Origin: Candidatus Pacearchaeota archaeon
Lineage (GTDB): Archaea; Nanobdellota; Nanobdellia; Pacearchaeales; GW2011-AR1
DNA length: 64,000 nt
Assembly (NCBI GenBank): GCA_016866995.1
Contig: VGKQ01000003.1
Span: forward strand, 118-64,117
Direction of reading: 5' to 3'
The notes below the pieces were generated by a model. The model had not been told where the DNA came from. It searched no databases and saw nothing but the letters and a program-made list of their open reading frames with translations. The position numbers were made by a program, and so were the translations under genes. Shown piece after piece: positions 345-8,969 of the stretch (the stretch's first letter is position 1; the number at the start of each line of letters is the position of its first letter).

Positions 345-518
345 TTTTCCCTCTTTTTTATGAAATTAAATCTTTTGAGTTTATAAAGATAATTATGCTT
401 CGGCATTAGGCAGGATATTTTGATTTGACAAAGAAAAAAGCGAAAGGTTTATAAACTATTTAGTAGTAACATTTTCAATTAAACAAAAATATAAATACAA
501 GATTTAATTGTTACTAAT

Positions 519-1067
519 ATGATAAGACCAGGAGATATACCAATTGAAGAAAGAATTAATGAAGGGCAGTGTGACATATCCCATTTTTTTCCAGATAATC
601 CAGAAAGAGATTGCCATCTGGCAATTATGGGCTCACCGATGAGGGGGGCAGTTTATTTTAATTTAAAACAACCAAGAAGAGCAACACACCAGAGTACAAG
701 AAGAGACTTTGAATATGCACCAAGTGTAGAAACACCAGATTATGTTGTAAACGCAAGAATTTGCCTTGGAGATAGGGTTTGGAATTATCACACACCTACG
801 CAAAATGCTTCAGAAATCAGAAGAGTTTTTATTTTAAGAAACCAGGCACTAGAATTGGATATTGAGGAATCATTGATATGGATGTCTTGTCCTCAAGGGA
901 CATCAAGGCATGATGAAGCAAGAGTTCAATTGGAACAAGAAACTAGCGATGTTAATAATCAGGTAATTCTTCAGTTAATGTATGATAGAGTTCAGAAAGG
1001 ATTGCCTATGCTTGAGGTGAGTTCTAGAGTTCCTATACAAGAAGATAAATCTTTAGTATCTAGTTAA
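519..1067 (+). CDS. hypothetical protein, first gene of the AAA+/vWA operon
   Basis: 182-aa ORF on the same strand, ending a few nt before the AAA+ gene. No family recognised. Confidence 0.5.
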   Translation: MIRPGDIPIEERINEGQCDISHFFPDNPERDCHLAIMGSPMRGAVYFNLKQPRRATHQSTRRDFEYAPSVETPDYVVNARICLGDRVWNYHTPTQNASEIRRVFILRNQALELDIEESLIWMSCPQGTSRHDEARVQLEQETSDVNNQVILQLMYDRVQKGLPMLEVSSRVPIQEDKSLVSS

Positions 1068-1083
1068 ATAATTGTGTATTAAA

Positions 1084-1938
1084 ATGAATGGCGAAGGATA
1101 TGATTTAAGCAAGTATGTTGTTCAAAAGGAACCGTTTTATTTAGATATAGCCAGAGAAACGCAACTTTTTAAAGCTGCTTTTCAACAAAAACTTCCTGTT
1201 ATTTTGAAAGGTCCAACAGGATGCGGGAAGAGCAGGTTTATGGAAAGAATGGCTTGGGAAATAAACAGAGAACTTGCTGGACATGATTCTGGATTTCCTC
1301 TAGTGACTGTTCCGTGTCAAGAAGGTTTGACTGCAGACGATTTAATTGGAAGATATCTTATTGACGGAAAATGGATGGATGGTCCGGCGCTTGTTGCTGT
1401 GAGGCACGGAGGACTATTATATTTAGACGAAATTGTTGAAGCTAGAAGCGATACTACTGTTGTTATTCATCCCTTAACAGACCACAGAAGAATACTTCCA
1501 GTAGAGAAGCTCGGCAAAGTTTTTGAGGCTCCTGATAATTTTATGCTTGGGATGTCTTTTAATCCTGGATATCAGAGAAAAATAAAGGATTTAAAAATGA
1601 GCACAAAACAAAGGTTTGTAGCAATCAATTTTGATTATCCTCCTTCTGATACTGAAAGAGAAATTGTTGTGAAAGAGTCTGGCGTTGATGAGAAAACTGC
1701 AGGTGTTTTGGTTGAAATTGGGGGTAATTTTAGAAAAGCAAAAAAACAAGGCAAATTAGAAGAAGGAGCAAGTACAAGACTTTTGGTAAATGCAGCAAAA
1801 CTCATAACTGCGGGCGTAGAACCTTATAGAGCATGTGAAGTTGCTATACTTAATCCAATTACAGACGATGTTGATGTTCAAGAAGCCTTGAGGGGCGGAT
1901 TAGCTGATGTTATTAGAAACTACTTCCCCGGGAGATAA
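1084..1938 (+). CDS. CbbQ/NorQ/NirQ-family (MoxR-like) AAA+ ATPase
   Basis: Walker A LKGPTGCGKSRF and Walker B LLYLDEIVEA. Family-typical strings VTVPCQEGLTADDLIGRY, HPLTDHRRILP, SFNPGYQ and STKQRFVAINFDYP. ATG at 1084 preferred over the TTG at 1072 used by the ORF track. Confidence 0.85.
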   Translation: MNGEGYDLSKYVVQKEPFYLDIARETQLFKAAFQQKLPVILKGPTGCGKSRFMERMAWEINRELAGHDSGFPLVTVPCQEGLTADDLIGRYLIDGKWMDGPALVAVRHGGLLYLDEIVEARSDTTVVIHPLTDHRRILPVEKLGKVFEAPDNFMLGMSFNPGYQRKIKDLKMSTKQRFVAINFDYPPSDTEREIVVKESGVDEKTAGVLVEIGGNFRKAKKQGKLEEGASTRLLVNAAKLITAGVEPYRACEVAILNPITDDVDVQEALRGGLADVIRNYFPGR

Positions 1939-1958
1939 TTAAATTTGTTTTTTGAAGT

Positions 1959-3404
1959 ATGACTAAGTCTTTGGATACTCTTATAACGAGAATAGCTGGT
2001 TTTTACGCGGCTCGTCCAGATTTTACTCCAAAGAGAGCTAAAAGAGGAAGAACTATTGCTCAGAGATTTTCAAGAAGGTTTGCTCGTATCGCTCCTGAAG
2101 ATAGAGAGACTGCAAAAAAAATATTCTTGAGCTATATTTCAAAGGAGAGAGCTGAAAGAAAACCGAGTAAGGGTGTGAGAATAGAAAAACCCGCAAAAAA
2201 ATCTGATGAAAAAGTAAGAAGAGCAAGGACTGAAGAGGAACAATATGCAGAAAGAAGTTTCTATGATTTTTTTAAGAGTTATTTAGGATTTTATATTCAG
2301 GCATCTGAAGACAGGGAAAAATTAGGATTGTTCAATAGAGGTTTGTTGTATATCTTAGATGAAGTTTCAACAGATAGAACTGCAAGCAGTGTTTTGGCTA
2401 GATTTGGCAGTATATTAGAAATTCCTAATGATGCTATTTCTCTTTGGTTGCAGAGTTTGAGTCATCTTTCCAGGAGAGCTAAAGGAGGAGCCAGAACATA
2501 TGATGAAAAAATAGAGAGATACGCAGAAATTTCTACAAGACATCTTGTTGATTTTGAAGATTCTTATAGACACGTGCTTAGAGTTTTAGCTCAAGGTGAA
2601 CCTGTTTTTGGTGCTGAAGACTTTTTATTTAGATTTGCTGGAAATAAGAAGCGAGATGAAGCAGATGTTTTAGGGTGTTATAATACACTTAAAGAAGTTG
2701 ATTCAAGATTAAGGCCAGAAGTAGAGAGAGTCAGGGCGAAAGCTAGCAGAGTAAAAAATAATTCTGCTTTCTTGGCATCTGTTGACGAAAAAACTTACAG
2801 ATTAATCAAAGCAGGAAAAGGCAGAGAGTATCACCAATTAGCTACTTCTTTATTAAACCATCTTGTTGGTATGGCTTTTGGTCATAGAAGATTAGAGAGA
2901 GAACTTTCTTTATTAGAAGGAGTAGTTAATGCAAACCCAGAACTCATTGAAGATGTTTCTAGGAGACTTAAAACATTAGAATTTTCAGATTTGAATGTTC
3001 CTGCTTATCTTAAAGTTGTTACTCACTTGCAGGCGATGCAAGGCTTGACTCCTCAAGACAGAGAAAAATATATGGATATTTCAGTTGAATTATTCCAGGA
3101 TTATAATTATTGGAATAGGCAGTCAAATCCCCAGACAGTTAGAAGAAAGTGTCTTGGGGTGATTGATAAATTAAGTTCTTTGGAAGAAGATAAAAGAAAA
3201 ACTGCTCTTGATCTTGTTTATTCTTTAAAAGATAGAGTTAAAAGACACCCTAGATTAAGCCAACAACCTCCTCTTTATTTAGACAAAGCTATTGAAGTAA
3301 TAACTGAATCTGTTGCTGTTGATTCGTTCAAGGCTGTTGCATTTGTTAATCAAGTAATTAATTATCAGGATTCACCTAGAGGAGAAAAAGATGCAAAAGG
3401 TTAA
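1959..3404 (+). CDS. hypothetical helical protein inside the AAA+/vWA operon
   Basis: 481-aa ORF between the AAA+ and vWA genes. Its 3' end overlaps the next start by 14 nt. No family recognised. Confidence 0.55.
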   Translation: MTKSLDTLITRIAGFYAARPDFTPKRAKRGRTIAQRFSRRFARIAPEDRETAKKIFLSYISKERAERKPSKGVRIEKPAKKSDEKVRRARTEEEQYAERSFYDFFKSYLGFYIQASEDREKLGLFNRGLLYILDEVSTDRTASSVLARFGSILEIPNDAISLWLQSLSHLSRRAKGGARTYDEKIERYAEISTRHLVDFEDSYRHVLRVLAQGEPVFGAEDFLFRFAGNKKRDEADVLGCYNTLKEVDSRLRPEVERVRAKASRVKNNSAFLASVDEKTYRLIKAGKGREYHQLATSLLNHLVGMAFGHRRLERELSLLEGVVNANPELIEDVSRRLKTLEFSDLNVPAYLKVVTHLQAMQGLTPQDREKYMDISVELFQDYNYWNRQSNPQTVRRKCLGVIDKLSSLEEDKRKTALDLVYSLKDRVKRHPRLSQQPPLYLDKAIEVITESVAVDSFKAVAFVNQVINYQDSPRGEKDAKG

Positions 3405-5814
3405 AAAAGATAAAGATACTCCAAAAATTTCTTTGAAACCAGGAATTATTTGCAGTTATGCAAGTAAACTTTTGCCTTTTGTTCCTGATTTAGTTGGAAA
3501 AGTAAGTGCTGATGATTGGACACGGGCGCTGGATGTTGTTTATTTTAAGTATAAAGCAAATAAAACAGGGAGACATGATGTTAATAATTTTATAGATAGA
3601 CTTATGGGTTCTCTTAAGAGTATGCCCCCAAAAAGGATTCCTTATTGCTTAGGTGAATTAGAAAAGGTGAGAAGAGTAAGACTGGAGGATAGAAGAGATT
3701 CAGATTTAGAAGAAGTAATTCTTGATTCTGTTGAGAACAGGACAGGATTTTCAGAGCAAGAACTTTCACAGTTGCATAATGTTTTCTTAAACATGTATTC
3801 AGATGGTAACACTTGTTTTCCTTCAGCAATAGCTTTTTTTGATGAATTGGCTGAAGAAATGAGCAATGTGCCTGCTAAATTTAGAGGACAAGCAATTGAG
3901 TATGCTGGCAAGGTTGTATCCAAAGCTGTAGAAGAAGAAAGAGACCAGAGAGCCAGAGTAAGATTGCCATATGAACCTTTTGTTTATTTAAGACTAGCAA
4001 ACAAATTAGCTGTAAGTTATGCCCATGCAGCTAGAAAGAATATTCCTTCTTTAGGAGATGGATTTTCTGCTTGGATTGATAAAGCATTGAAAGAAAAATC
4101 TGCAAGAGAATTATTTGGTTATTTTGGAGATGAACACGATTATTTTGCAGCGGATTTAGAAGTTGCTGTTGGCGGATTAAGTTTTTCAAAAATAAACGAA
4201 AGACTTCTTACATATGTCCAGGCGCTTACAGGCAGGCATGTGAAAGTAAAAGATTCTGGCTCTCTTGAATTGAGATGTTCATTTGAAGGAGATACTTTTT
4301 TTCTTCCTAATGCAGTTAATGTTGCAGAAGATGAAGAAGGAAATTATAGTATTTACAAATCTCTGGCTTCTTATCAAGCAGGAGCATTTATGTTTGGAAC
4401 ATACAAGCCAGATTTAGAAAAGCTTGATGATGCAACTAGAATAAGAGTTGCAAATGGTTTGGGCGGATTTTTTGGGATATTTGAGAATCCTGATTTTGCA
4501 AGAGCCCTATTTGAGTTGCTTGAATTTACACGTATTGATTCAAGATTAGCTGATAAATTCCCAGGTCTTAGACAGGATTTAGATATTTTTAAAAAAACCC
4601 TTGTATCAAAGCCTCGTGAAAAAGGACAATTGATACTTGGAGGAATACTTGATTATGCATGCGGAGGAAAGCCAAAAAAATTAGAAGCACAAGTAACAGA
4701 AGCAGTTTCTTCATTGAGAAGCAAAGAAGCAGGTGTTGCTCAGACACTTAATGCAACAAATTTAATCTACACTATTTTGAGCAGGAGATTTAATTTAGCT
4801 AATCAAAGAGTTCCTGAAGATTTAATTGGTGTTGATTTAAAAGAAGTTATTGAAAAACTAGAAGAAGCTGAAAAAACATTTTTAGTTGCTAAGCCTTCTG
4901 CTGAAGAGCCTACAGGATACAGATTTAGATATGATGAGTGGGATTATGCTAAAAAGGAATATAAAAAAGGATTTGTGCAGGTTGTAGAAGTTCTGTATCC
5001 TTCTGCTGCTGATAATAGATATGTTGCAGAGGTTCTTCATAGTCATAGTAAAGTTATTCAAGCATTAAGAAGAGATTTTGAATCAATTGCCCCCCAAGAA
5101 TTTCAGAGAGTTAGAGGACAGGTTTCTGGAGATGTAGATTTTGATGCTTTAGTCAGGGCAAGAGCTGAGATGGCTGCTGGAGAAACCCCATCAGAAAAAG
5201 TTTATACTCGAAAGTTCAGAAATGATAGGTCTGTGACTTCTATGCTTGTATCAGATGGCAGCGGTTCATTAAGGTGGTTTATTGATACTGAAAATCCAAA
5301 TTTAAGGACAATAGACATTATCAAACAATCTTATATCTATTATGCAGAGGCATTAGGTATATTAGGAGATTCTTTTGCACTTGCAAATTTCTCAGGAGAG
5401 ACTGAAAAAAATGTTGAGTTTTATTTATTGAAAGATTTTGACCAGCCCTATGATTCTCCTGTTAGAATGGCAATTGGTTCTATAAAACCCTTAAAACAAA
5501 ATAGAGATGGTGCTGGTGTGCGACATGCTGCACATGTTCTTGCTGGGAGGCCTGAAAGAACAAAATTATTATTTTGTATGATGGAGGGGGTTCCCCATGA
5601 TTTTGGTTATGAAGGAAAGTATGCTGTTGAAGATACAAGAAAAGCACTAATTGAAGCTAAACATTTAGGATGTGTGCCTGTTGTTTTAGCTTTTGGACAT
5701 AAAATAGATGAAGGAGTAAGGTCTCTTTCAGAAAATGTTTTTTACAGAGAAGTCAGTGATTCTACTAGGCTTCCTTTGGTTGTTCCTGATTTGTATAGAA
5801 GAATGGCAATTTAG
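3391..5814 (+). CDS. CbbO/NorD-like protein with C-terminal von Willebrand factor A (vWA) domain
   Basis: 807 aa. The C-terminal ~200 aa has a MIDAS-like DxSxS (LVSDGSGS) and a vWA-like alternation of hydrophobic strands. Size and position next to a CbbQ/NorQ ATPase match Q/O or Q/D pairs. Confidence 0.7.
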   Translation: MQKVKKDKDTPKISLKPGIICSYASKLLPFVPDLVGKVSADDWTRALDVVYFKYKANKTGRHDVNNFIDRLMGSLKSMPPKRIPYCLGELEKVRRVRLEDRRDSDLEEVILDSVENRTGFSEQELSQLHNVFLNMYSDGNTCFPSAIAFFDELAEEMSNVPAKFRGQAIEYAGKVVSKAVEEERDQRARVRLPYEPFVYLRLANKLAVSYAHAARKNIPSLGDGFSAWIDKALKEKSARELFGYFGDEHDYFAADLEVAVGGLSFSKINERLLTYVQALTGRHVKVKDSGSLELRCSFEGDTFFLPNAVNVAEDEEGNYSIYKSLASYQAGAFMFGTYKPDLEKLDDATRIRVANGLGGFFGIFENPDFARALFELLEFTRIDSRLADKFPGLRQDLDIFKKTLVSKPREKGQLILGGILDYACGGKPKKLEAQVTEAVSSLRSKEAGVAQTLNATNLIYTILSRRFNLANQRVPEDLIGVDLKEVIEKLEEAEKTFLVAKPSAEEPTGYRFRYDEWDYAKKEYKKGFVQVVEVLYPSAADNRYVAEVLHSHSKVIQALRRDFESIAPQEFQRVRGQVSGDVDFDALVRARAEMAAGETPSEKVYTRKFRNDRSVTSMLVSDGSGSLRWFIDTENPNLRTIDIIKQSYIYYAEALGILGDSFALANFSGETEKNVEFYLLKDFDQPYDSPVRMAIGSIKPLKQNRDGAGVRHAAHVLAGRPERTKLLFCMMEGVPHDFGYEGKYAVEDTRKALIEAKHLGCVPVVLAFGHKIDEGVRSLSENVFYREVSDSTRLPLVVPDLYRRMAI

Positions 5815-5929: not shown

Positions 5930-6000
5930 TGCGCCAGCCGGGAATTGAACCCGGTTCTAAAGCTTGGGAAGCTTTCATACTGCCGGTATACTACTAGCGC
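5930..6000 (-). tRNA. tRNA-Gly (anticodon CCC)
   Basis: Hand-folded cloverleaf on the minus strand. Acceptor GCGCTAG/CTGGCGC, anticodon stem AAAGC/GCTTT with loop TT-CCC-AA, T arm CCGGG-TTCAATT-CCCGG. 71 nt, CCA not encoded, no intron. Confidence 0.9.
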
Positions 6001-6109: not shown

Positions 6110-6682
6110 ATGAAATGGAAAAGAGGACTTGGAATTATTTTAATTATAGCAAGCATCTTAATTTCGCTTTTTGACTTAACTTTGACTGGGGCTGTTGTGG
6201 GAGTTTCTGATGTTAATCTTGGCTTATTTTCTTTCGTGCTTTTTGTTGCTGGATTTATTTTATTAATAACAGAGACTATTGAAAGGAGAAAGCATGCAAG
6301 AGCTGAATTATCTGTCGAGCTTGGAGGAGTTACATATGAACCTCACGCTCTTGATAGAATGTCTAAGAGACATGTTTATCCTTCGATAGTTAGTGATGCA
6401 ATAAGAAATGGAGAGCACTATAGATTGACTCATGTTGTAAATTCTGATGAAACCAGGGGGGCGACAGATGCATATATCAGCAGAAACTGCGCAGATATTC
6501 TTTCTTCTGGCAGAGTTGGAGAGAGAATAATAAAAGTCGAGCCTGGCAGAAAAAGGGATTTCAAGAATTTACTTGTTTTGACTGATAAAGTAGGAGTTGT
6601 AAAAACTGTATATTTAAAAGAGGATTCAAGATTACACTCTTTTCTAGAAAGATATGTCAAGAGAAAAACAGCTGCTGCCTAG
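6110..6682 (+). CDS. membrane-anchored protein with DUF4258-like (RNase-toxin-like) C-terminal domain
   Basis: Two N-terminal TM helices. After them, YEPHALDRMSKRHVYPSIVSDAIRNGE resembles the H-A-x-x-R-M-x-x-R start of DUF4258. The domain call is from memory of the family pattern only. Confidence 0.4.
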   Translation: MKWKRGLGIILIIASILISLFDLTLTGAVVGVSDVNLGLFSFVLFVAGFILLITETIERRKHARAELSVELGGVTYEPHALDRMSKRHVYPSIVSDAIRNGEHYRLTHVVNSDETRGATDAYISRNCADILSSGRVGERIIKVEPGRKRDFKNLLVLTDKVGVVKTVYLKEDSRLHSFLERYVKRKTAAA

Positions 6683-7428
6683 CTTGCTTGTCTTATTCTT
6701 ACAAGAAAATTGTTTATTTTTTGAATATCTGGAGTTTCTGGCAGCCCTGATTTTTCTATTCCTGCAACCAGCCTGGCATCAAGATTTCTGATTAATTCAG
6801 CAAGTTTTTCTTGGTTTTCTGCTTGTGGTTTGCCTGTCTGCTTGGATTCTGCTATTTTTTTTGCTTCATCATAATCAAACATTGTGCTTAATTCTCTCAT
6901 ATCAAAAACAAGCCTTCCTGTTTCTGCAAGTGCTATCCCTGTTAGATAACCTCTGATAGTATGAAAATCTCTTTTTGTTGTTTCAATTGGCTTGTGCTGC
7001 TGGTTTCTTGAGAAATTAAGATAATAATTAATCAGTCTCCTGCTAACTCCTGCAGTATTAACAAGATTTTGTAAATTTTGATATTCATCTGAAGCAGATA
7101 TTAGTAGCGGGCTGTTTACCCATTCAAACCTGCTTCCGTTAGAGTGCGCAACAAGACTAAGAAAATGCCCAAGTTCATCAATTTCTAAATCAAGATTGCC
7201 TTTTCTCTGGCTTATTGTCGGCTCTTTTACTTTTTTTCTTAATCTCAGTAAATTTTCTGTTGGGGCAAGATAAACTCCTCTTACATCAATATCTGACTTT
7301 GCAGAAGGATAGCCAAAATAGTGGGAGCCGCAGACTGCGATGAAAAGCGGCTTGCCTTTTGCCGAGATTTTTCTATCTGCTTGATATTCATCCATTAATC
7401 TTTTTGCTTCTTCTGTTATATTTGTCAT
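6679..7428 (-). CDS. predicted nucleotidyltransferase (RlaP/PF10127-like)
   Basis: VCGSHYFGYPSAKSDIDVRGVY is a G-S ... D-x-D Pol-beta-type NTase signature. 249 aa. Confidence 0.6.
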   Translation of the reverse strand: MTNITEEAKRLMDEYQADRKISAKGKPLFIAVCGSHYFGYPSAKSDIDVRGVYLAPTENLLRLRKKVKEPTISQRKGNLDLEIDELGHFLSLVAHSNGSRFEWVNSPLLISASDEYQNLQNLVNTAGVSRRLINYYLNFSRNQQHKPIETTKRDFHTIRGYLTGIALAETGRLVFDMRELSTMFDYDEAKKIAESKQTGKPQAENQEKLAELIRNLDARLVAGIEKSGLPETPDIQKINNFLVRIRQAS

Positions 7429-8267: not shown

Positions 8268-8969
8268 ATGAACCCACATGAATTGACAGGAGCAGGACTA
8301 ACTGAAAATGAGAGCAAAGTTTATCTTGCTCTTATTGAGCTTGGCCCAGCTTTAGCTGGAGGAATATCAAGAAAAACAGGAATGCACAGGAGAACAGTTT
8401 ACGATACTTGTGATATGCTGATTAAAAAAGGGCTTATTGGCTATATCCTAAAAAATAATCGCAGATTATTTCAAGCCTCAAATCCATCGAGAATACTTGA
8501 AATAATAAAAGAAAAAGAAAATTTACTTGAACCTCTAATTTCTGAATTAAACTTGAAATATGGAAAGACAAAAGAGAAAGAAGAAACAAATTTTTACAAG
8601 GGAAAAGAGGGATTAAAAACAGTTTTTGAAGAACAACTTCAAGCCAGAGAGATACTAATACTTGGTGCAAGCCCCAGAGCATATGAGATTTTGCAATTTT
8701 ATTTCAAGTGGTATGATAAAACTCGAAAAGAAAAGAGAATAAAAGCGAGAATAATTGCAAGCGATAGGAAAATCAAGAGAATTCCACTTGCAGAAATCAG
8801 ATACCTGCCTGAAAAATATTCCTCGCCTGTTTCTGTTAATATTTATCAGGACAAGGTTGCAATTATTTTATGGGCCTCAAGTCCGTATGCTATTGTAATA
8901 AAAAGTTCAGAAATTAGCAAAGGATACAGAAATTATTTTGAGTTAATGTGGAAGATGGCAAAGAAATAA
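8268..8969 (+). CDS. TrmB-family transcriptional regulator
   Basis: N-terminal wHTH LTENESKVYLALIELGPALAGGISRKTGMHRRTVYDTCDMLIKKGLI, typical of TrmB. Confidence 0.75.
   Translation: MNPHELTGAGLTENESKVYLALIELGPALAGGISRKTGMHRRTVYDTCDMLIKKGLIGYILKNNRRLFQASNPSRILEIIKEKENLLEPLISELNLKYGKTKEKEETNFYKGKEGLKTVFEEQLQAREILILGASPRAYEILQFYFKWYDKTRKEKRIKARIIASDRKIKRIPLAEIRYLPEKYSSPVSVNIYQDKVAIILWASSPYAIVIKSSEISKGYRNYFELMWKMAKK

What the first reader, a model, noticed from the sequence alone, without database searches (positions are those of the whole stretch)
519..5814. CbbQ/NorQ-type AAA+ ATPase and CbbO/NorD-like vWA protein in a four-gene operon with two unknown partners and no visible client enzyme
Seen directly:
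- There are four co-directional genes that abut or overlap.
- The second is an unmistakable CbbQ/NorQ-family ATPase (GPTGCGKSRF, HPLTDHRRILP, NPGYQ, STKQRFVAINFDYP).
- The fourth is 807 aa with a C-terminal vWA/MIDAS region (DGSGS).
- The 182-aa first gene and the 481-aa helical third gene match nothing I recognise.

Established knowledge:
- Q/O pairs activate Rubisco in chemoautotrophic bacteria.
- Q/D pairs mature nitric oxide reductase.
- MoxR-vWA pairs also occur in conflict/defence-type ternary systems.

Inference: in a small archaeal genome with neither client nearby, the extra two genes may be the client or adaptors of a different remodelling task. Some DPANN-type genomes do encode form III-like Rubisco, so a distant client is possible.
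Basis: partly seen in the sequence, partly recalled or inferred. Interest (0 to 1): 0.6.

Follow-up and report, generated by a model that had tools for sequence, protein, structure and literature searches.

The report
DPANN four-gene CbbQ/CbbO-like remodelling cassette
A tiny symbiotic (DPANN) archaeon carries a tight four-gene cassette: an ATP-driven motor and adaptor closely related to the bacterial Rubisco activase CbbQ/CbbO, always with two proteins that have no known relatives. The cassette does not track Rubisco or any other known client, so it is probably an undescribed use of this motor type.

Summary
Four co-directional, translationally coupled genes occupy 519-5814:
- A: 182 aa.
- Q: 288 aa.
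- C: 481 aa.
- O: 807 aa.

Q is a bona fide CbbQ/NorQ AAA+ ATPase (PDB CbbQ E 5e-89). O is a full CbbO/NorD-type adaptor, with the pore finger, the MIDAS site and the hydrophobic C-terminal anchor all conserved.

A and C are orphan families. They match no profile library and no solved or viral fold. Yet every cassette with intact upstream sequence, in about 20 non-redundant DPANN loci with different flanks, has the order A-Q-C-O. In some lineages it is A-Q-longO, where an extension the size of C is part of O.

The classical clients do not fit:
- Rubisco is in 73% of the order, the cassette in 1.5%, and only 4 of 12 complete-cassette genomes have Rubisco.
- NorB and CobN are absent from all 12.

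The cassette is a rare, patchy accessory module. It often lies beside tRNA genes and toxin-antitoxin genes, and decayed remnants exist.

Best reading: a self-contained Q6-O-C remodelling machine that works on or with the acidic orphan protein A. Its cellular role is unknown. I rate it a new variant of a known kind, of moderate interest.

The parts
490..497 (+). TATA-like box (TATAAATA), about 22-29 nt upstream of the A start codon; candidate archaeal promoter for a leaderless operon transcript
   Evidence: Read directly from the sequence.
519..1067 (+). Gene A: 182-aa acidic orphan protein. It has a low-confidence N-terminal region with an R-x-G-D...IEER-x-N-x-G motif and a confident alpha/beta core (residues 70-165). 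Candidate dedicated client or cofactor.
   Evidence: ORF. No hit in any profile library. An exhaustive HMMER search found only 55 representatives among 1.84 billion. It always lies directly upstream of a CbbQ-type gene, even for the distant member P0077. AF2 pLDDT is 78, with no PDB or BFVD fold match. W88, Y90, R102, E141 and N147 are invariant in 44 members. pI is 4.7-6.4 in all homologs.
1072..1938 (+). Gene Q: CbbQ/NorQ-type MoxR-class AAA+ ATPase, 288 aa from the TTG start (an in-frame ATG lies at 1084)
   Evidence: Pfam CbbQ_C and AAA_5. PDB CbbQ 5c3c 4.9e-89, 6l1q 1.3e-83, NorQ 1e-72. Walker A GPTGCGKS, Walker B LYLDE, the helix-2 insert GRYLI and a Cys pair are conserved.
1959..3404 (+). 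Gene C: 481-aa all-alpha helical-repeat protein. It is the fastest-evolving component and is translationally coupled to O (14-nt overlap). It is probably an arm of the adaptor.
   Evidence: ORF. AF2 pLDDT 81 and pTM 0.71, about 23 helices. Foldseek finds only designed or generic helical repeats. Mean pairwise identity is 28.5%, against 66% for Q. In L014-L017, L040/L041 and L045 there is no separate C, and O instead carries an N-terminal extension of about 445 aa. Profile-profile similarity to C is weak but collinear (E 4e-4 to 5e-4, against 0.28 for a reversed control).
3391..5814 (+). Gene O: 807-aa CbbO/NorD-type adaptor, made of an N-terminal helical region, a linker and a C-terminal vWA domain
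   Evidence: ORF. The profile matches NorD 9qhd_G and 9qh6_G over residues 502-800 (1e-34). Residues 241-802 align with a 776-aa probable CbbO that lies next to ribulose-phosphate 3-epimerase (E 2e-36).
5086..5226 (+). O residues about 566-612: the 'finger' segment that in NorD enters the NorQ pore (conserved G-[IE]-TPSEK tip)
   Evidence: It aligns to the NorD finger region (PdNorD 403-448). Conservation across 12 homologs is shown. The function is taken from PMC13036017.
5233..5811 (+). O residues 615-807: vWA domain with MIDAS (D622, S624, S626, T671, D706) and the hydrophobic C-terminal end LYRRMAI
   Evidence: S, S, T and D are invariant. The first position is D here and E in the 11 other homologs. 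The protein ends at the conserved LPxLYRRIA[IVF] motif, as NorD ends at its NorQ-contacting tail.
5930..6000 (-). tRNA-Gly(CCC) 116 nt downstream of O; marks the cassette boundary and a possible island insertion point
   Evidence: ARAGORN. A tRNA lies within 500 nt of a cassette edge in 4 of 11 non-redundant loci. The chance probability is about 5e-5 at this genome's detected tRNA density.

Best explanation
The four genes encode one self-contained remodelling machine specific to DPANN archaea.

Shown by sequence comparison: Q is a CbbQ/NorQ-type AAA+ ATPase. O is a CbbO/NorD-type adaptor that keeps every element known to couple such an adaptor to its ring. These are the finger that enters the pore, the hydrophobic extreme C-terminus that binds the post-sensor-1 loop, and a complete MIDAS site for grasping an acidic residue of a target.

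Inferred: Q forms a hexamer that carries one O, as in CbbQ6O1 and NorQ6D1. C is a fast-evolving helical-repeat protein made in 1:1 coupling with O, and in some lineages it is part of the same polypeptide. It acts as an extra arm of the adaptor that holds or selects the target.

A is a consistently acidic orphan protein. It sits where the client genes sit in cbbLS-QO and norCB-QD operons, that is, immediately upstream of Q. A is therefore the dedicated client or obligatory cofactor. It is grasped through an acidic residue (invariant E141, or the acidic N-terminal R-x-G-D...EER peptide) at the MIDAS site, and is remodelled when ATP hydrolysis twists O.

The machine is not a Rubisco activase, an NO-reductase chaperone or a chelatase motor. 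It is a rare, horizontally mobile accessory module. What the remodelled A does in the cell is unknown.
For: Motor identity:
- Pfam and PDB hits for Q.
- The NorD alignment of O covers the finger, the vWA domain and the C-terminus.
- O is homologous to a probable CbbO over residues 241-802.
- The interface motifs defined in PMC13036017 are conserved in Q and in O.

One module:
- The genes have gaps of 4 and 20 nt and a 14-nt overlap.
- The order A-Q-C-O or A-Q-longO is found in every locus with intact upstream sequence, while the flanks differ.
- A profile search of 1.84 billion proteins finds only 55 A-family members. A distant one (P0077) is still directly upstream of a CbbQ gene.
- A and C are single-copy in the genome.

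C as part of the adaptor:
- C and O overlap or abut in all loci.
- Long O variants carry an N-terminal extension of the same size and position as C, with weak collinear profile similarity.

Not the classical clients:
- Rubisco is in 73% of the order, the cassette in 1.5%, and only 4 of 12 complete-cassette genomes have Rubisco. P(X<=4) is 0.004 at the background rate and 7e-5 if Rubisco were obligatory.
- The genome's own Rubisco is on another contig and lacks the C-terminal (H/K)R motif.
- NorB and CobN are found in 0 of 12 genomes.

Accessory and mobile:
- The cassette is in 6 of 401 genomes and 5 of 153 genera.
- tRNA genes are adjacent more often than expected.
- Truncated O remnants lie beside PIN/MazE pairs.
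Against: - No experiment or complex prediction links A physically to Q, C or O. A's role as client rather than regulator, cofactor or effector rests on gene order and conservation alone.
- A has no conserved Cys or His and no fold relatives, so nothing says what it would do after remodelling.
- The C/O fusion is supported by position and size, but only weakly by sequence (hhalign probability 31-35%).
- The genomes are MAGs of about 80-90% completeness, so individual absences of Rubisco are uncertain. Some cassette genomes may belong to lineages where Rubisco is less common than in the sampled order.
- In 11 of 12 O homologs the first MIDAS residue is E rather than the canonical D. The effect of this on metal binding is unknown.
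Confidence: 0.5

Rival explanations
1. Conflict or defence module. The Q/O motor arms or restrains an effector, in the manner proposed for vWA-MoxR ternary systems. The fast-evolving helical protein C would sense an invader (virus or host factor). A would be the effector or toxin, released or activated by remodelling.
For: - Distribution is rare and patchy, flanks vary, and decayed remnants exist.
- Toxin-antitoxin-type neighbours are frequent: PIN/MazE, PemK, HepT/MNT and ParE. In the window there is a weak sub-cutoff DUF4258 hit and an RlaP-family nucleotidyltransferase at 6110-7428.
- tRNA genes are adjacent more often than expected.
- C evolves much faster than Q (28.5% against 66% identity), as sensor components do.
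- Kaur et al. 2020 propose all-alpha, rapidly diverging sensor modules in vWA-MoxR systems.
Against: - None of the four proteins contains a recognisable effector domain, and PADLOC gives no relevant hit.
- The vWA domain is at the extreme C-terminus with no effector after it, and the AAA+ is CbbQ-type, unlike the described ternary systems.
- TA genes are very common in DPANN genomes, so their proximity was not shown to be enriched.
- No copies were found on viral contigs.
Confidence: 0.2
2. Chaperone for an unlinked cellular client. Q/O, helped by A and C as lineage-specific adaptors, matures or repairs a protein or complex encoded elsewhere. Examples would be metal insertion as with NorQD, or Midasin/Rea1-like release of factors from a large particle such as the ribosome.
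For: - All characterised Q/O-type pairs act on a separate enzyme.
- After CbbQ and NorQ, the best PDB matches of Q are Midasin AAA domains (6e-33).
- Related Q/O pairs sit in quite different contexts. One lies beside HdrABC-like genes in L030. Others lie between CoaE-like and NUDIX-like genes in group 2. This shows the motor is readily re-targeted.
Against: - A client needed by only 1.5% of genomes in the order would itself have to be a rare accessory gene, yet no conserved neighbour exists beyond the four genes.
- It does not explain why A is strictly linked to Q, even in distant family members.
- No candidate client was found: Rubisco, NorB and CobN were all tested and do not fit.
Confidence: 0.2
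3. Trans-acting activase of the form III Rubisco of the AMP/nucleoside salvage pathway. This would be an archaeal counterpart of CbbQO encoded away from its client.
For: - Q is closer to authentic CbbQ than to NorQ (301 against 248 bits).
- O aligns with a probable CbbO over 560 residues.
- This genome does encode a Rubisco.
Against: - Rubisco is in 73% of the order but the cassette in only 1.5%.
- Eight of 12 complete-cassette genomes show no Rubisco. P = 7e-5 if detection were 85%.
- The two are never adjacent.
- The genome's own Rubisco ends in DLWEK, without the (H/K)R motif required for CbbQO action on form I and II enzymes.
- Published survey: archaeal CbbQ is negatively correlated with the Calvin cycle (PMC7895386).
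Confidence: 0.07

Closest known systems
CbbQ/CbbO Rubisco activase (Acidithiobacillus ferrooxidans Q1O1 and Q2O2, Halothiobacillus neapolitanus CbbQ; PDB 5c3c, 6l1q)
   Same: - Q is the closest sequence relative (E 4.9e-89).
- The adaptor has the same size class (about 770-810 aa) and the same layout: N-terminal helical region, then a C-terminal vWA domain with MIDAS.
- Q precedes O in the operon.
- A small client-position gene lies upstream of Q.
   Different: - There is no adjacent Rubisco and no co-occurrence with Rubisco.
- There are two extra obligatory partners, A and C.
- The first MIDAS residue is E in most homologs.
- The hosts are non-autotrophic DPANN archaea.
NorQ/NorD (FeB insertion into cNOR; PDB 9qh4-9qhg; PMC13036017)
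   Same: The finger, the vWA domain and the C-terminal anchor of O align with NorD (1e-34). The helix-2 insert GRxL[LI] and the P-loop/beta-2 cysteine pair of NorQ are present in Q. The twisting mechanism is the best available model for how Q acts on O.
   Different: - No NorB is present in any cassette genome.
- O is about 170 aa longer than NorD at the N-terminus.
- A and C have no counterpart in nor operons.
- No conserved metal-ligand residues are found in A or C.
vWA-MoxR ternary conflict systems (VMAP, iSTAND, FtsH and beta-propeller types; Kaur et al. 2020, PMC7159879)
   Same: An AAA+/vWA pair is hard-wired to additional lineage-specific proteins. One of these is an all-alpha, fast-diverging protein. 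The distribution is patchy and looks mobile.
   Different: - The AAA+ is CbbQ-type, not the MoxR type of those systems.
- The vWA domain is C-terminal with no effector domains after it.
- There is no VMAP-C, iSTAND, FtsH or propeller component, and no enzymatic effector.
- The hosts are unicellular ultra-small archaea rather than multicellular bacteria.
Midasin/Rea1 (eukaryotic ribosome assembly AAA+ with a MIDAS domain)
   Same: AAA_5-type modules similar to Q (6e-33). A MIDAS domain docks on the ring with a loop in the pore. The MIDAS site grasps an acidic residue of a small partner domain.
   Different: Midasin is a single giant polypeptide with six fused AAA modules. Its partners are UBL domains, and A shows no UBL or any other known fold.

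Membership tests
CbbQ/NorQ subfamily of MoxR-class AAA+ ATPases (protein Q) | AAA_5 ATPase core plus the CbbQ_C lid domain, both above Pfam gathering scores | tested here: met
   CbbQ_C 98.9 bits (cut-off 20.6) and AAA_5 83.1 bits (cut-off 22). PDB CbbQ 4.9e-89 and NorQ 1e-72.
CbbQ/NorQ subfamily of MoxR-class AAA+ ATPases (protein Q) | Walker A and B motifs, and the helix-2 insert motif GRxL[L/I]xxxxT that contacts the adaptor finger | tested here: met
   GPTGCGK[ST], LYLDE and GR[YH]L[ILM] are conserved in the cassette Q proteins, except that the distant L025 Q has GMEKI in place of the helix-2 motif. The terminal T of the motif is not conserved. The motif definition comes from PMC13036017.
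CbbO/NorD-type vWA adaptor (protein O) | C-terminal vWA domain with a complete MIDAS motif (DxSxS...T...D) | tested here: met
   D622, S624, S626, T671 and D706 are present in the window protein. S, S, T and D are invariant in 12 homologs. The first residue is E in the other 11.
CbbO/NorD-type vWA adaptor (protein O) | Finger segment preceding the vWA domain, and a hydrophobic extreme C-terminus that anchors to the AAA+ ring | tested here: met
   There is a continuous alignment to NorD 349-643, including the finger (PdNorD 403-448) and the last residues. Conservation of GxTPSEK and LPxLYRRIA[IVF] is shown. Whether these actually bind Q cannot be tested here.
CbbQO Rubisco activase system | Encoded with, or co-distributed with, its Rubisco client | tested here: not met
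   Rubisco is on another contig. It is present in 4 of 12 complete-cassette genomes, against 73% of the order. No Rubisco lies beside any of the 59 metagenomic loci.
CbbQO Rubisco activase system | Client Rubisco large subunit carries the C-terminal (H/K)R motif needed for activation | tested here: not met
   The genome's own Rubisco (429 aa) ends in ...RDALDLWEK. The motif is described in PMC5437159. It was defined for form I and II enzymes only.
CbbQO Rubisco activase system | ATP-dependent release of inhibitory sugar phosphates from Rubisco | not testable with these tools
   This needs a biochemical assay.
NorQD NO-reductase maturation system | Presence of the cNOR catalytic subunit NorB (haem-copper oxidase family) | tested here: not met
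   PF00115 was found in 0 of 12 cassette genomes, while the controls gave matches in 9 of 14 known genomes.
Class I chelatase motors (CobST, BchID/ChlID) | Presence of the large substrate-binding subunit CobN/BchH | tested here: not met
   PF02514 was found in 0 of 12 cassette genomes. The only link is a sub-threshold CobT_C hit of O (20.9 bits against a cut-off of 21).
vWA-MoxR ternary conflict systems (Kaur et al. 2020) | A third component of VMAP, iSTAND, FtsH or beta-propeller type, and variable effector domains C-terminal to the vWA domain | tested here: not met
   O ends at the vWA domain. A is too small for VMAP-C (a core of 7 strands and 6-7 helices). No PADLOC, Pfam or NCBIfam hit to any effector was found. 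VMAP profiles themselves were not available, so a very remote relationship is not excluded.
Known anti-phage defence systems (PADLOC-DB 2.0) | A significant match of any component to a defence-system model | tested here: not met
   Only generic AAA+ matches of Q were found (RtcR 2.2e-6). A, C and O gave none.

The most novel reading that the evidence does not exclude
A-Q-C-O would be a previously undescribed class of CbbQ/CbbO-type machine that carries its own substrate. A is an orphan-fold acidic protein whose active or assembled state is set by ATP-driven remodelling. C is a rapidly diversifying recognition arm. Together they would form a mobile conflict or host-interaction module of DPANN archaea. 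This would be the first Q/O motor shown to act outside enzyme maturation, and an archaeal parallel to the bacterial vWA-MoxR ternary immunity systems.
Probability: 0.2. Interest if true: 0.75.

Novelty: new variant of a known kind. Interest (0 to 1): 0.55.

Why it matters
CbbQ/CbbO and NorQ/NorD are the best-understood MoxR-type AAA+/vWA machines, and each is defined by its client enzyme. Here a motor very close to authentic CbbQ is found in ultra-small, non-autotrophic archaea. It is detached from Rubisco, NOR and chelatase clients and locked to two proteins with no known relatives.

That widens the known range of tasks for this motor type. It also cautions against annotating archaeal CbbQ or CbbO homologs as Rubisco activases.

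The system is compact: four genes, about 200 kDa of unique sequence, with no membrane parts. A candidate client of only 21 kDa is encoded in the operon. The general question of how a MIDAS adaptor selects and remodels its target could therefore be tested by simple reconstitution.

Tried and rejected
1. Rubisco as client: rejected on co-occurrence, location and the missing C-terminal motif.
2. NOR or chelatase clients: NorB and CobN are absent.
3. Membership of the VMAP or iSTAND ternary systems or of known defence systems: the architecture does not fit and there are no PADLOC hits.
4. Zincin (HExxH) motif in the adaptor, and shared N- or C-terminal address tags on the partner proteins, as earlier notes reported for other DPANN AAA+/vWA clusters: no such motif and no shared tag. 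A and C are single-copy, and A's N-terminal peptide is unique in the genome.
5. Fold-based identification of A and C: no significant PDB or BFVD match for A (best E 7 and 2.3). C matches only designed or generic helical repeats.
6. C as a nucleic-acid-binding basic solenoid: its pI of 9.6 is not conserved (5.5-9.6 in homologs), and the proteome median pI is about 9.0.
7. Viral or mobile-element carriage: no A or O relatives on 2.9 million viral contigs, and PHROGs give only generic ATPase hits.
8. Proof of the C-O fusion by sequence: HMM search failed and hhalign gives only 31-35% probability. It is kept as a probable inference from position and size.
9. Conserved neighbours beyond the four genes: none. 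A TrmB-like regulator lies within 2.5 kb in 4 loci, but at varying distance and orientation.
The O alignment was used instead.

Full report
**1. Observation**

- A: 519-1067, 182 aa.
- Q: 1072-1938, 288 aa.
- C: 1959-3404, 481 aa.
- O: 3391-5814, 807 aa.

The A-Q gap is 4 nt and the Q-C gap is 20 nt. C and O overlap by 14 nt, so the genes are translationally coupled.

A TATA-like box (TATAAATA, 490-497) lies about 25 nt before the A start codon. A tRNA-Gly(CCC) on the opposite strand follows O at 5930-6000. GC content of the region (0.35) is close to the window's typical 0.28-0.38.

**2. The two recognisable proteins**

Q:
- Q scores 98.9 bits on Pfam CbbQ_C and 83.1 bits on AAA_5, far above the cut-offs.
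- Its best solved relatives are authentic CbbQ (5c3c 4.9e-89, 6l1q 1.3e-83), then NorQ (1e-72), then the AAA modules of Midasin (6e-33).

O:
- On its own, O gives only a sub-threshold CobT_C vWA hit.
- A profile of 12 homologs matches NorD of the 2026 NorQD cryo-EM structures over residues 502-800 (1e-34).
- O also aligns over residues 241-802 with a 776-aa bacterial vWA protein that lies next to ribulose-phosphate 3-epimerase, a probable true CbbO (E 2e-36).
- O is therefore a full CbbO/NorD-type adaptor, not just a vWA domain.

**3. Mechanical features**

The NorQD study (PMC13036017) defines how such a pair engages. A finger before the vWA domain enters the ring pore and contacts the helix-2 insert motif GRxL[L/I]xxxxT. 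The hydrophobic extreme C-terminus of the adaptor binds the post-sensor-1 loop. The N-terminal domain binds the small subdomain. ATP hydrolysis then twists and stretches the linker.

Features found in the cassette Q proteins:
- Walker A GPTGCGK[ST] is conserved.
- Walker B LYLDE is conserved.
- The GR[YH]L[ILM] insert is conserved.
- The P-loop Cys is present in all sequences and the second Cys in most. In NorQ this pair forms an inhibitory disulphide.

Features found in the O proteins:
- The finger segment (residues about 566-612, tip G-[IE]-TPSEK) is strongly conserved.
- The protein ends at LPxLYRRIA[IVF].
- The MIDAS S624, S626, T671 and D706 are invariant.
- The first MIDAS residue is D in the window protein and E in the 11 other homologs.

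These are sequence-level tests. Whether the parts actually bind was not testable here.

**4. The two unknown proteins**

A and C have no hit in Pfam, NCBIfam, PADLOC or PHROGs. This holds even when every family member is scanned.

A:
- The AlphaFold2 model has pLDDT 78. It has a confident alpha/beta core at residues 70-165 and a low-confidence N-terminal third.
- It has no significant match in the PDB or among viral structures.
- An exhaustive HMMER search of 1.84 billion cluster representatives found only 55 members, almost all stand-alone proteins of 160-250 aa.
- Across 44 members, only W88, Y90, R102, E141 and N147 are invariant.
- The closer members share an N-terminal R-x-G-D...IEER-x-N-x-G peptide.
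- A is acidic in all homologs (pI 4.7-6.4), in a proteome whose median pI is about 9.

C:
- The model has pLDDT 81 and pTM 0.71 and is all-alpha with about 23 helices.
- It resembles only designed or generic helical repeats.

**5. Conservation of the cassette**

Loci came from three sources: homologs of O, the species-representative genomes and the metagenome collection. Together they give about 20 non-redundant DPANN loci (Woese-, Pace- and Nanoarchaeota labels).

- Every locus with intact upstream sequence has A-Q-C-O, or A-Q followed by a long O of 1196-1303 aa.
- Clustering all flanking ORFs shows that only these four genes are shared.
- A distant A member (P0077, profile E 4e-13) is still directly upstream of a CbbQ-type gene.
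- Mean pairwise identities are Q 66%, A 46%, O 45% and C 28.5%.
- In the long O variants, homology to O begins at about residue 446. The extra N-terminal 445 aa therefore have the size and position of C.
- Profile-profile similarity between that extension and C is weak but collinear (E 4e-4 to 5e-4, probability 31-35%, against 0.28 for a reversed control).
- I read C as a split or fused arm of the adaptor. This is probable but not proven.

**6. Clients**

- The genome (1.06 Mb, 70 contigs, 86% complete) does encode a form III-like Rubisco, but on contig C1.
- In a sample of 401 genomes of the same order, Rubisco is present in 294 (73%). CbbQ_C is present in 6 (1.5%, 5 of 153 genera). Only 3 of those 6 have Rubisco.
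- Of the 14 species-representative genomes with O relatives, 3 have Rubisco.
- Restricted to 12 genomes with complete cassettes, 4 have Rubisco. The probability of 4 or fewer is 0.004 at the background rate, and 7e-5 if Rubisco were obligatory with 85% detection.
- The genome's own Rubisco ends in DLWEK. It lacks the C-terminal (H/K)R motif that CbbQO needs on form I and II enzymes.
- NorB (PF00115) and CobN/BchH (PF02514) are absent from all 12 genomes, with positive controls working.
- A published survey had already noted that archaeal CbbQ is anticorrelated with the Calvin cycle (PMC7895386).

The classical clients are therefore rejected. The caveat is that these are incomplete MAGs, and some may belong to lineages with less Rubisco than the sampled order.

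**7. Nature of the module**

- The distribution is rare and patchy.
- Flanks vary and often include toxin-antitoxin-type genes: PIN/MazE, PemK, HepT/MNT and ParE. In the window there is a weak, sub-cutoff DUF4258-like protein and an RlaP-family nucleotidyltransferase.
- A tRNA gene lies within 500 nt of a cassette edge in 4 of 11 non-redundant loci. The chance probability is about 5e-5 at this genome's detected tRNA density.
- Two loci keep only the last 133 codons of O beside a PIN/MazE pair.

Together these mark an accessory, horizontally mobile and dispensable module. No copy lies on viral contigs.

The module does not fit the vWA-MoxR ternary conflict systems of Kaur et al. 2020, for three reasons:
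- The AAA+ is CbbQ-type.
- The vWA domain is terminal, with no effector after it.
- No VMAP, iSTAND, FtsH or propeller component and no enzymatic effector is present.

It also differs from other DPANN AAA+/vWA clusters noted earlier in this scan. It has no zincin motif, no paralog arrays and no shared terminal tags.

**8. Interpretation**

The best-supported reading is a self-contained machine with these parts:
- a Q hexamer;
- one O adaptor engaged as in NorQD;
- C as an additional, fast-evolving helical arm made in 1:1 coupling with O;
- A as the dedicated client or obligatory cofactor.

A occupies the operon position of the client genes in cbbLS-QO and norCB-QD. It would probably be grasped through an acidic residue at the MIDAS site.

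The motor and adaptor identities and the unity of the cassette are shown. The stoichiometry, the role of C, and A as client are inferred.

Rival readings:
- a conflict module with C as sensor and A as effector (0.2);
- a chaperone for an unlinked client, including a Midasin-like role (0.2);
- a trans-acting form III Rubisco activase (0.07).

**9. Verdict**

- It is a new variant of a known kind of system: a Q/O-type AAA+/vWA remodeller with new obligatory partners and without the known clients.
- Interest is moderate (0.55). It is a compact, directly testable case of how a MIDAS adaptor picks its target, and a warning against annotating archaeal CbbQ/CbbO homologs as Rubisco activases.
- No cellular function can yet be assigned.

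Noticed in passing
window 5930-6000 (-); L004 12655-12727; L015 2237-2309; L016 2910-2981: tRNA genes (Gly, His, Pro, His), all on the strand opposite the cassette, lie within 120-470 nt of a cassette boundary in 4 of 11 non-redundant loci. This is far more than expected from tRNA density. It suggests that the cassette sits in tRNA-associated islets, although no integrase is adjacent.
   Followed up: partly
L018 1443-1856; L019 4937-5350: Only the last 133 codons of an O homolog (61% identical to window O residues 670-807) survive, directly beside a PIN/MazE toxin-antitoxin pair. This looks like a decayed cassette.
   Followed up: partly
L047, L049, L053, L054, L056, L062, L069, L072, L075, L088 and others (metagenome loci): A distinct, more distant Q/O family (O of 730-1130 aa, about 30% identical to window O from residue 200 on) lacks A and C. 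In the loci I inspected by eye (L047, L069, L072), it is embedded between a dephospho-CoA-kinase-like gene and a NUDIX-like gene of about 190 aa. L072 also has a CoA-ligase-like gene there. This may be a CoA-related client context for a Q/O pair. The neighbours were judged from sequence motifs only, not by HMM.
   Followed up: partly
L030 58-8373: Another CbbQ-type gene plus a 710-aa vWA gene lies divergent from an HdrA/B/C-like gene set (CCG, Fer4 and FAD_oxidored domains). This may be a further client context for Q/O motors.
   Followed up: no
L009 542-1390 (-): A second, divergent Q-like AAA+ gene (35% identical to window Q) lies 2.9 kb upstream of the cassette on the opposite strand in one Pacearchaeota contig.
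   Followed up: no
window O residue 622 (nt 5254-5256) and homologs: The first MIDAS position is the canonical Asp only in the window's protein. All 11 other aligned homologs have Glu (E-x-S-x-S). This is an unusual MIDAS variant whose effect on metal binding is unknown.
   Followed up: partly
L003 7107-7781; L020 3925-4590 (A homologs): Two A homologs carry a highly charged insertion of about 40 aa (for example EDEPRLEDMSGTTLEERERAHLRARADYMGRKRSYDIAQ) in the loop at A residues 122-128, after the short helix 115-121 and before the two long C-terminal helices. The core therefore tolerates a large surface insertion at that point.
   Followed up: no
window 6110-7428: Immediately beyond the tRNA lie two more genes. 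One is a membrane-anchored protein with a weak DUF4258 hit (E 0.0066, below the cut-off). The other is an RlaP-family nucleotidyltransferase (6.8e-28). These conflict-type neighbours were already flagged by another first-stage note.
   Followed up: partly
window 8268-8969 (+); L009 10759-11499; L011 11682-12401; L020 2237-2938: Homologs of a 233-aa protein (TrmB-like, judged by eye from its wHTH-like N-terminus; not run through any profile search) lie within about 1-2.5 kb of the cassette in 4 loci, at varying side and orientation. This may be chance, given how common this kind of regulator is in DPANN genomes.
   Followed up: no
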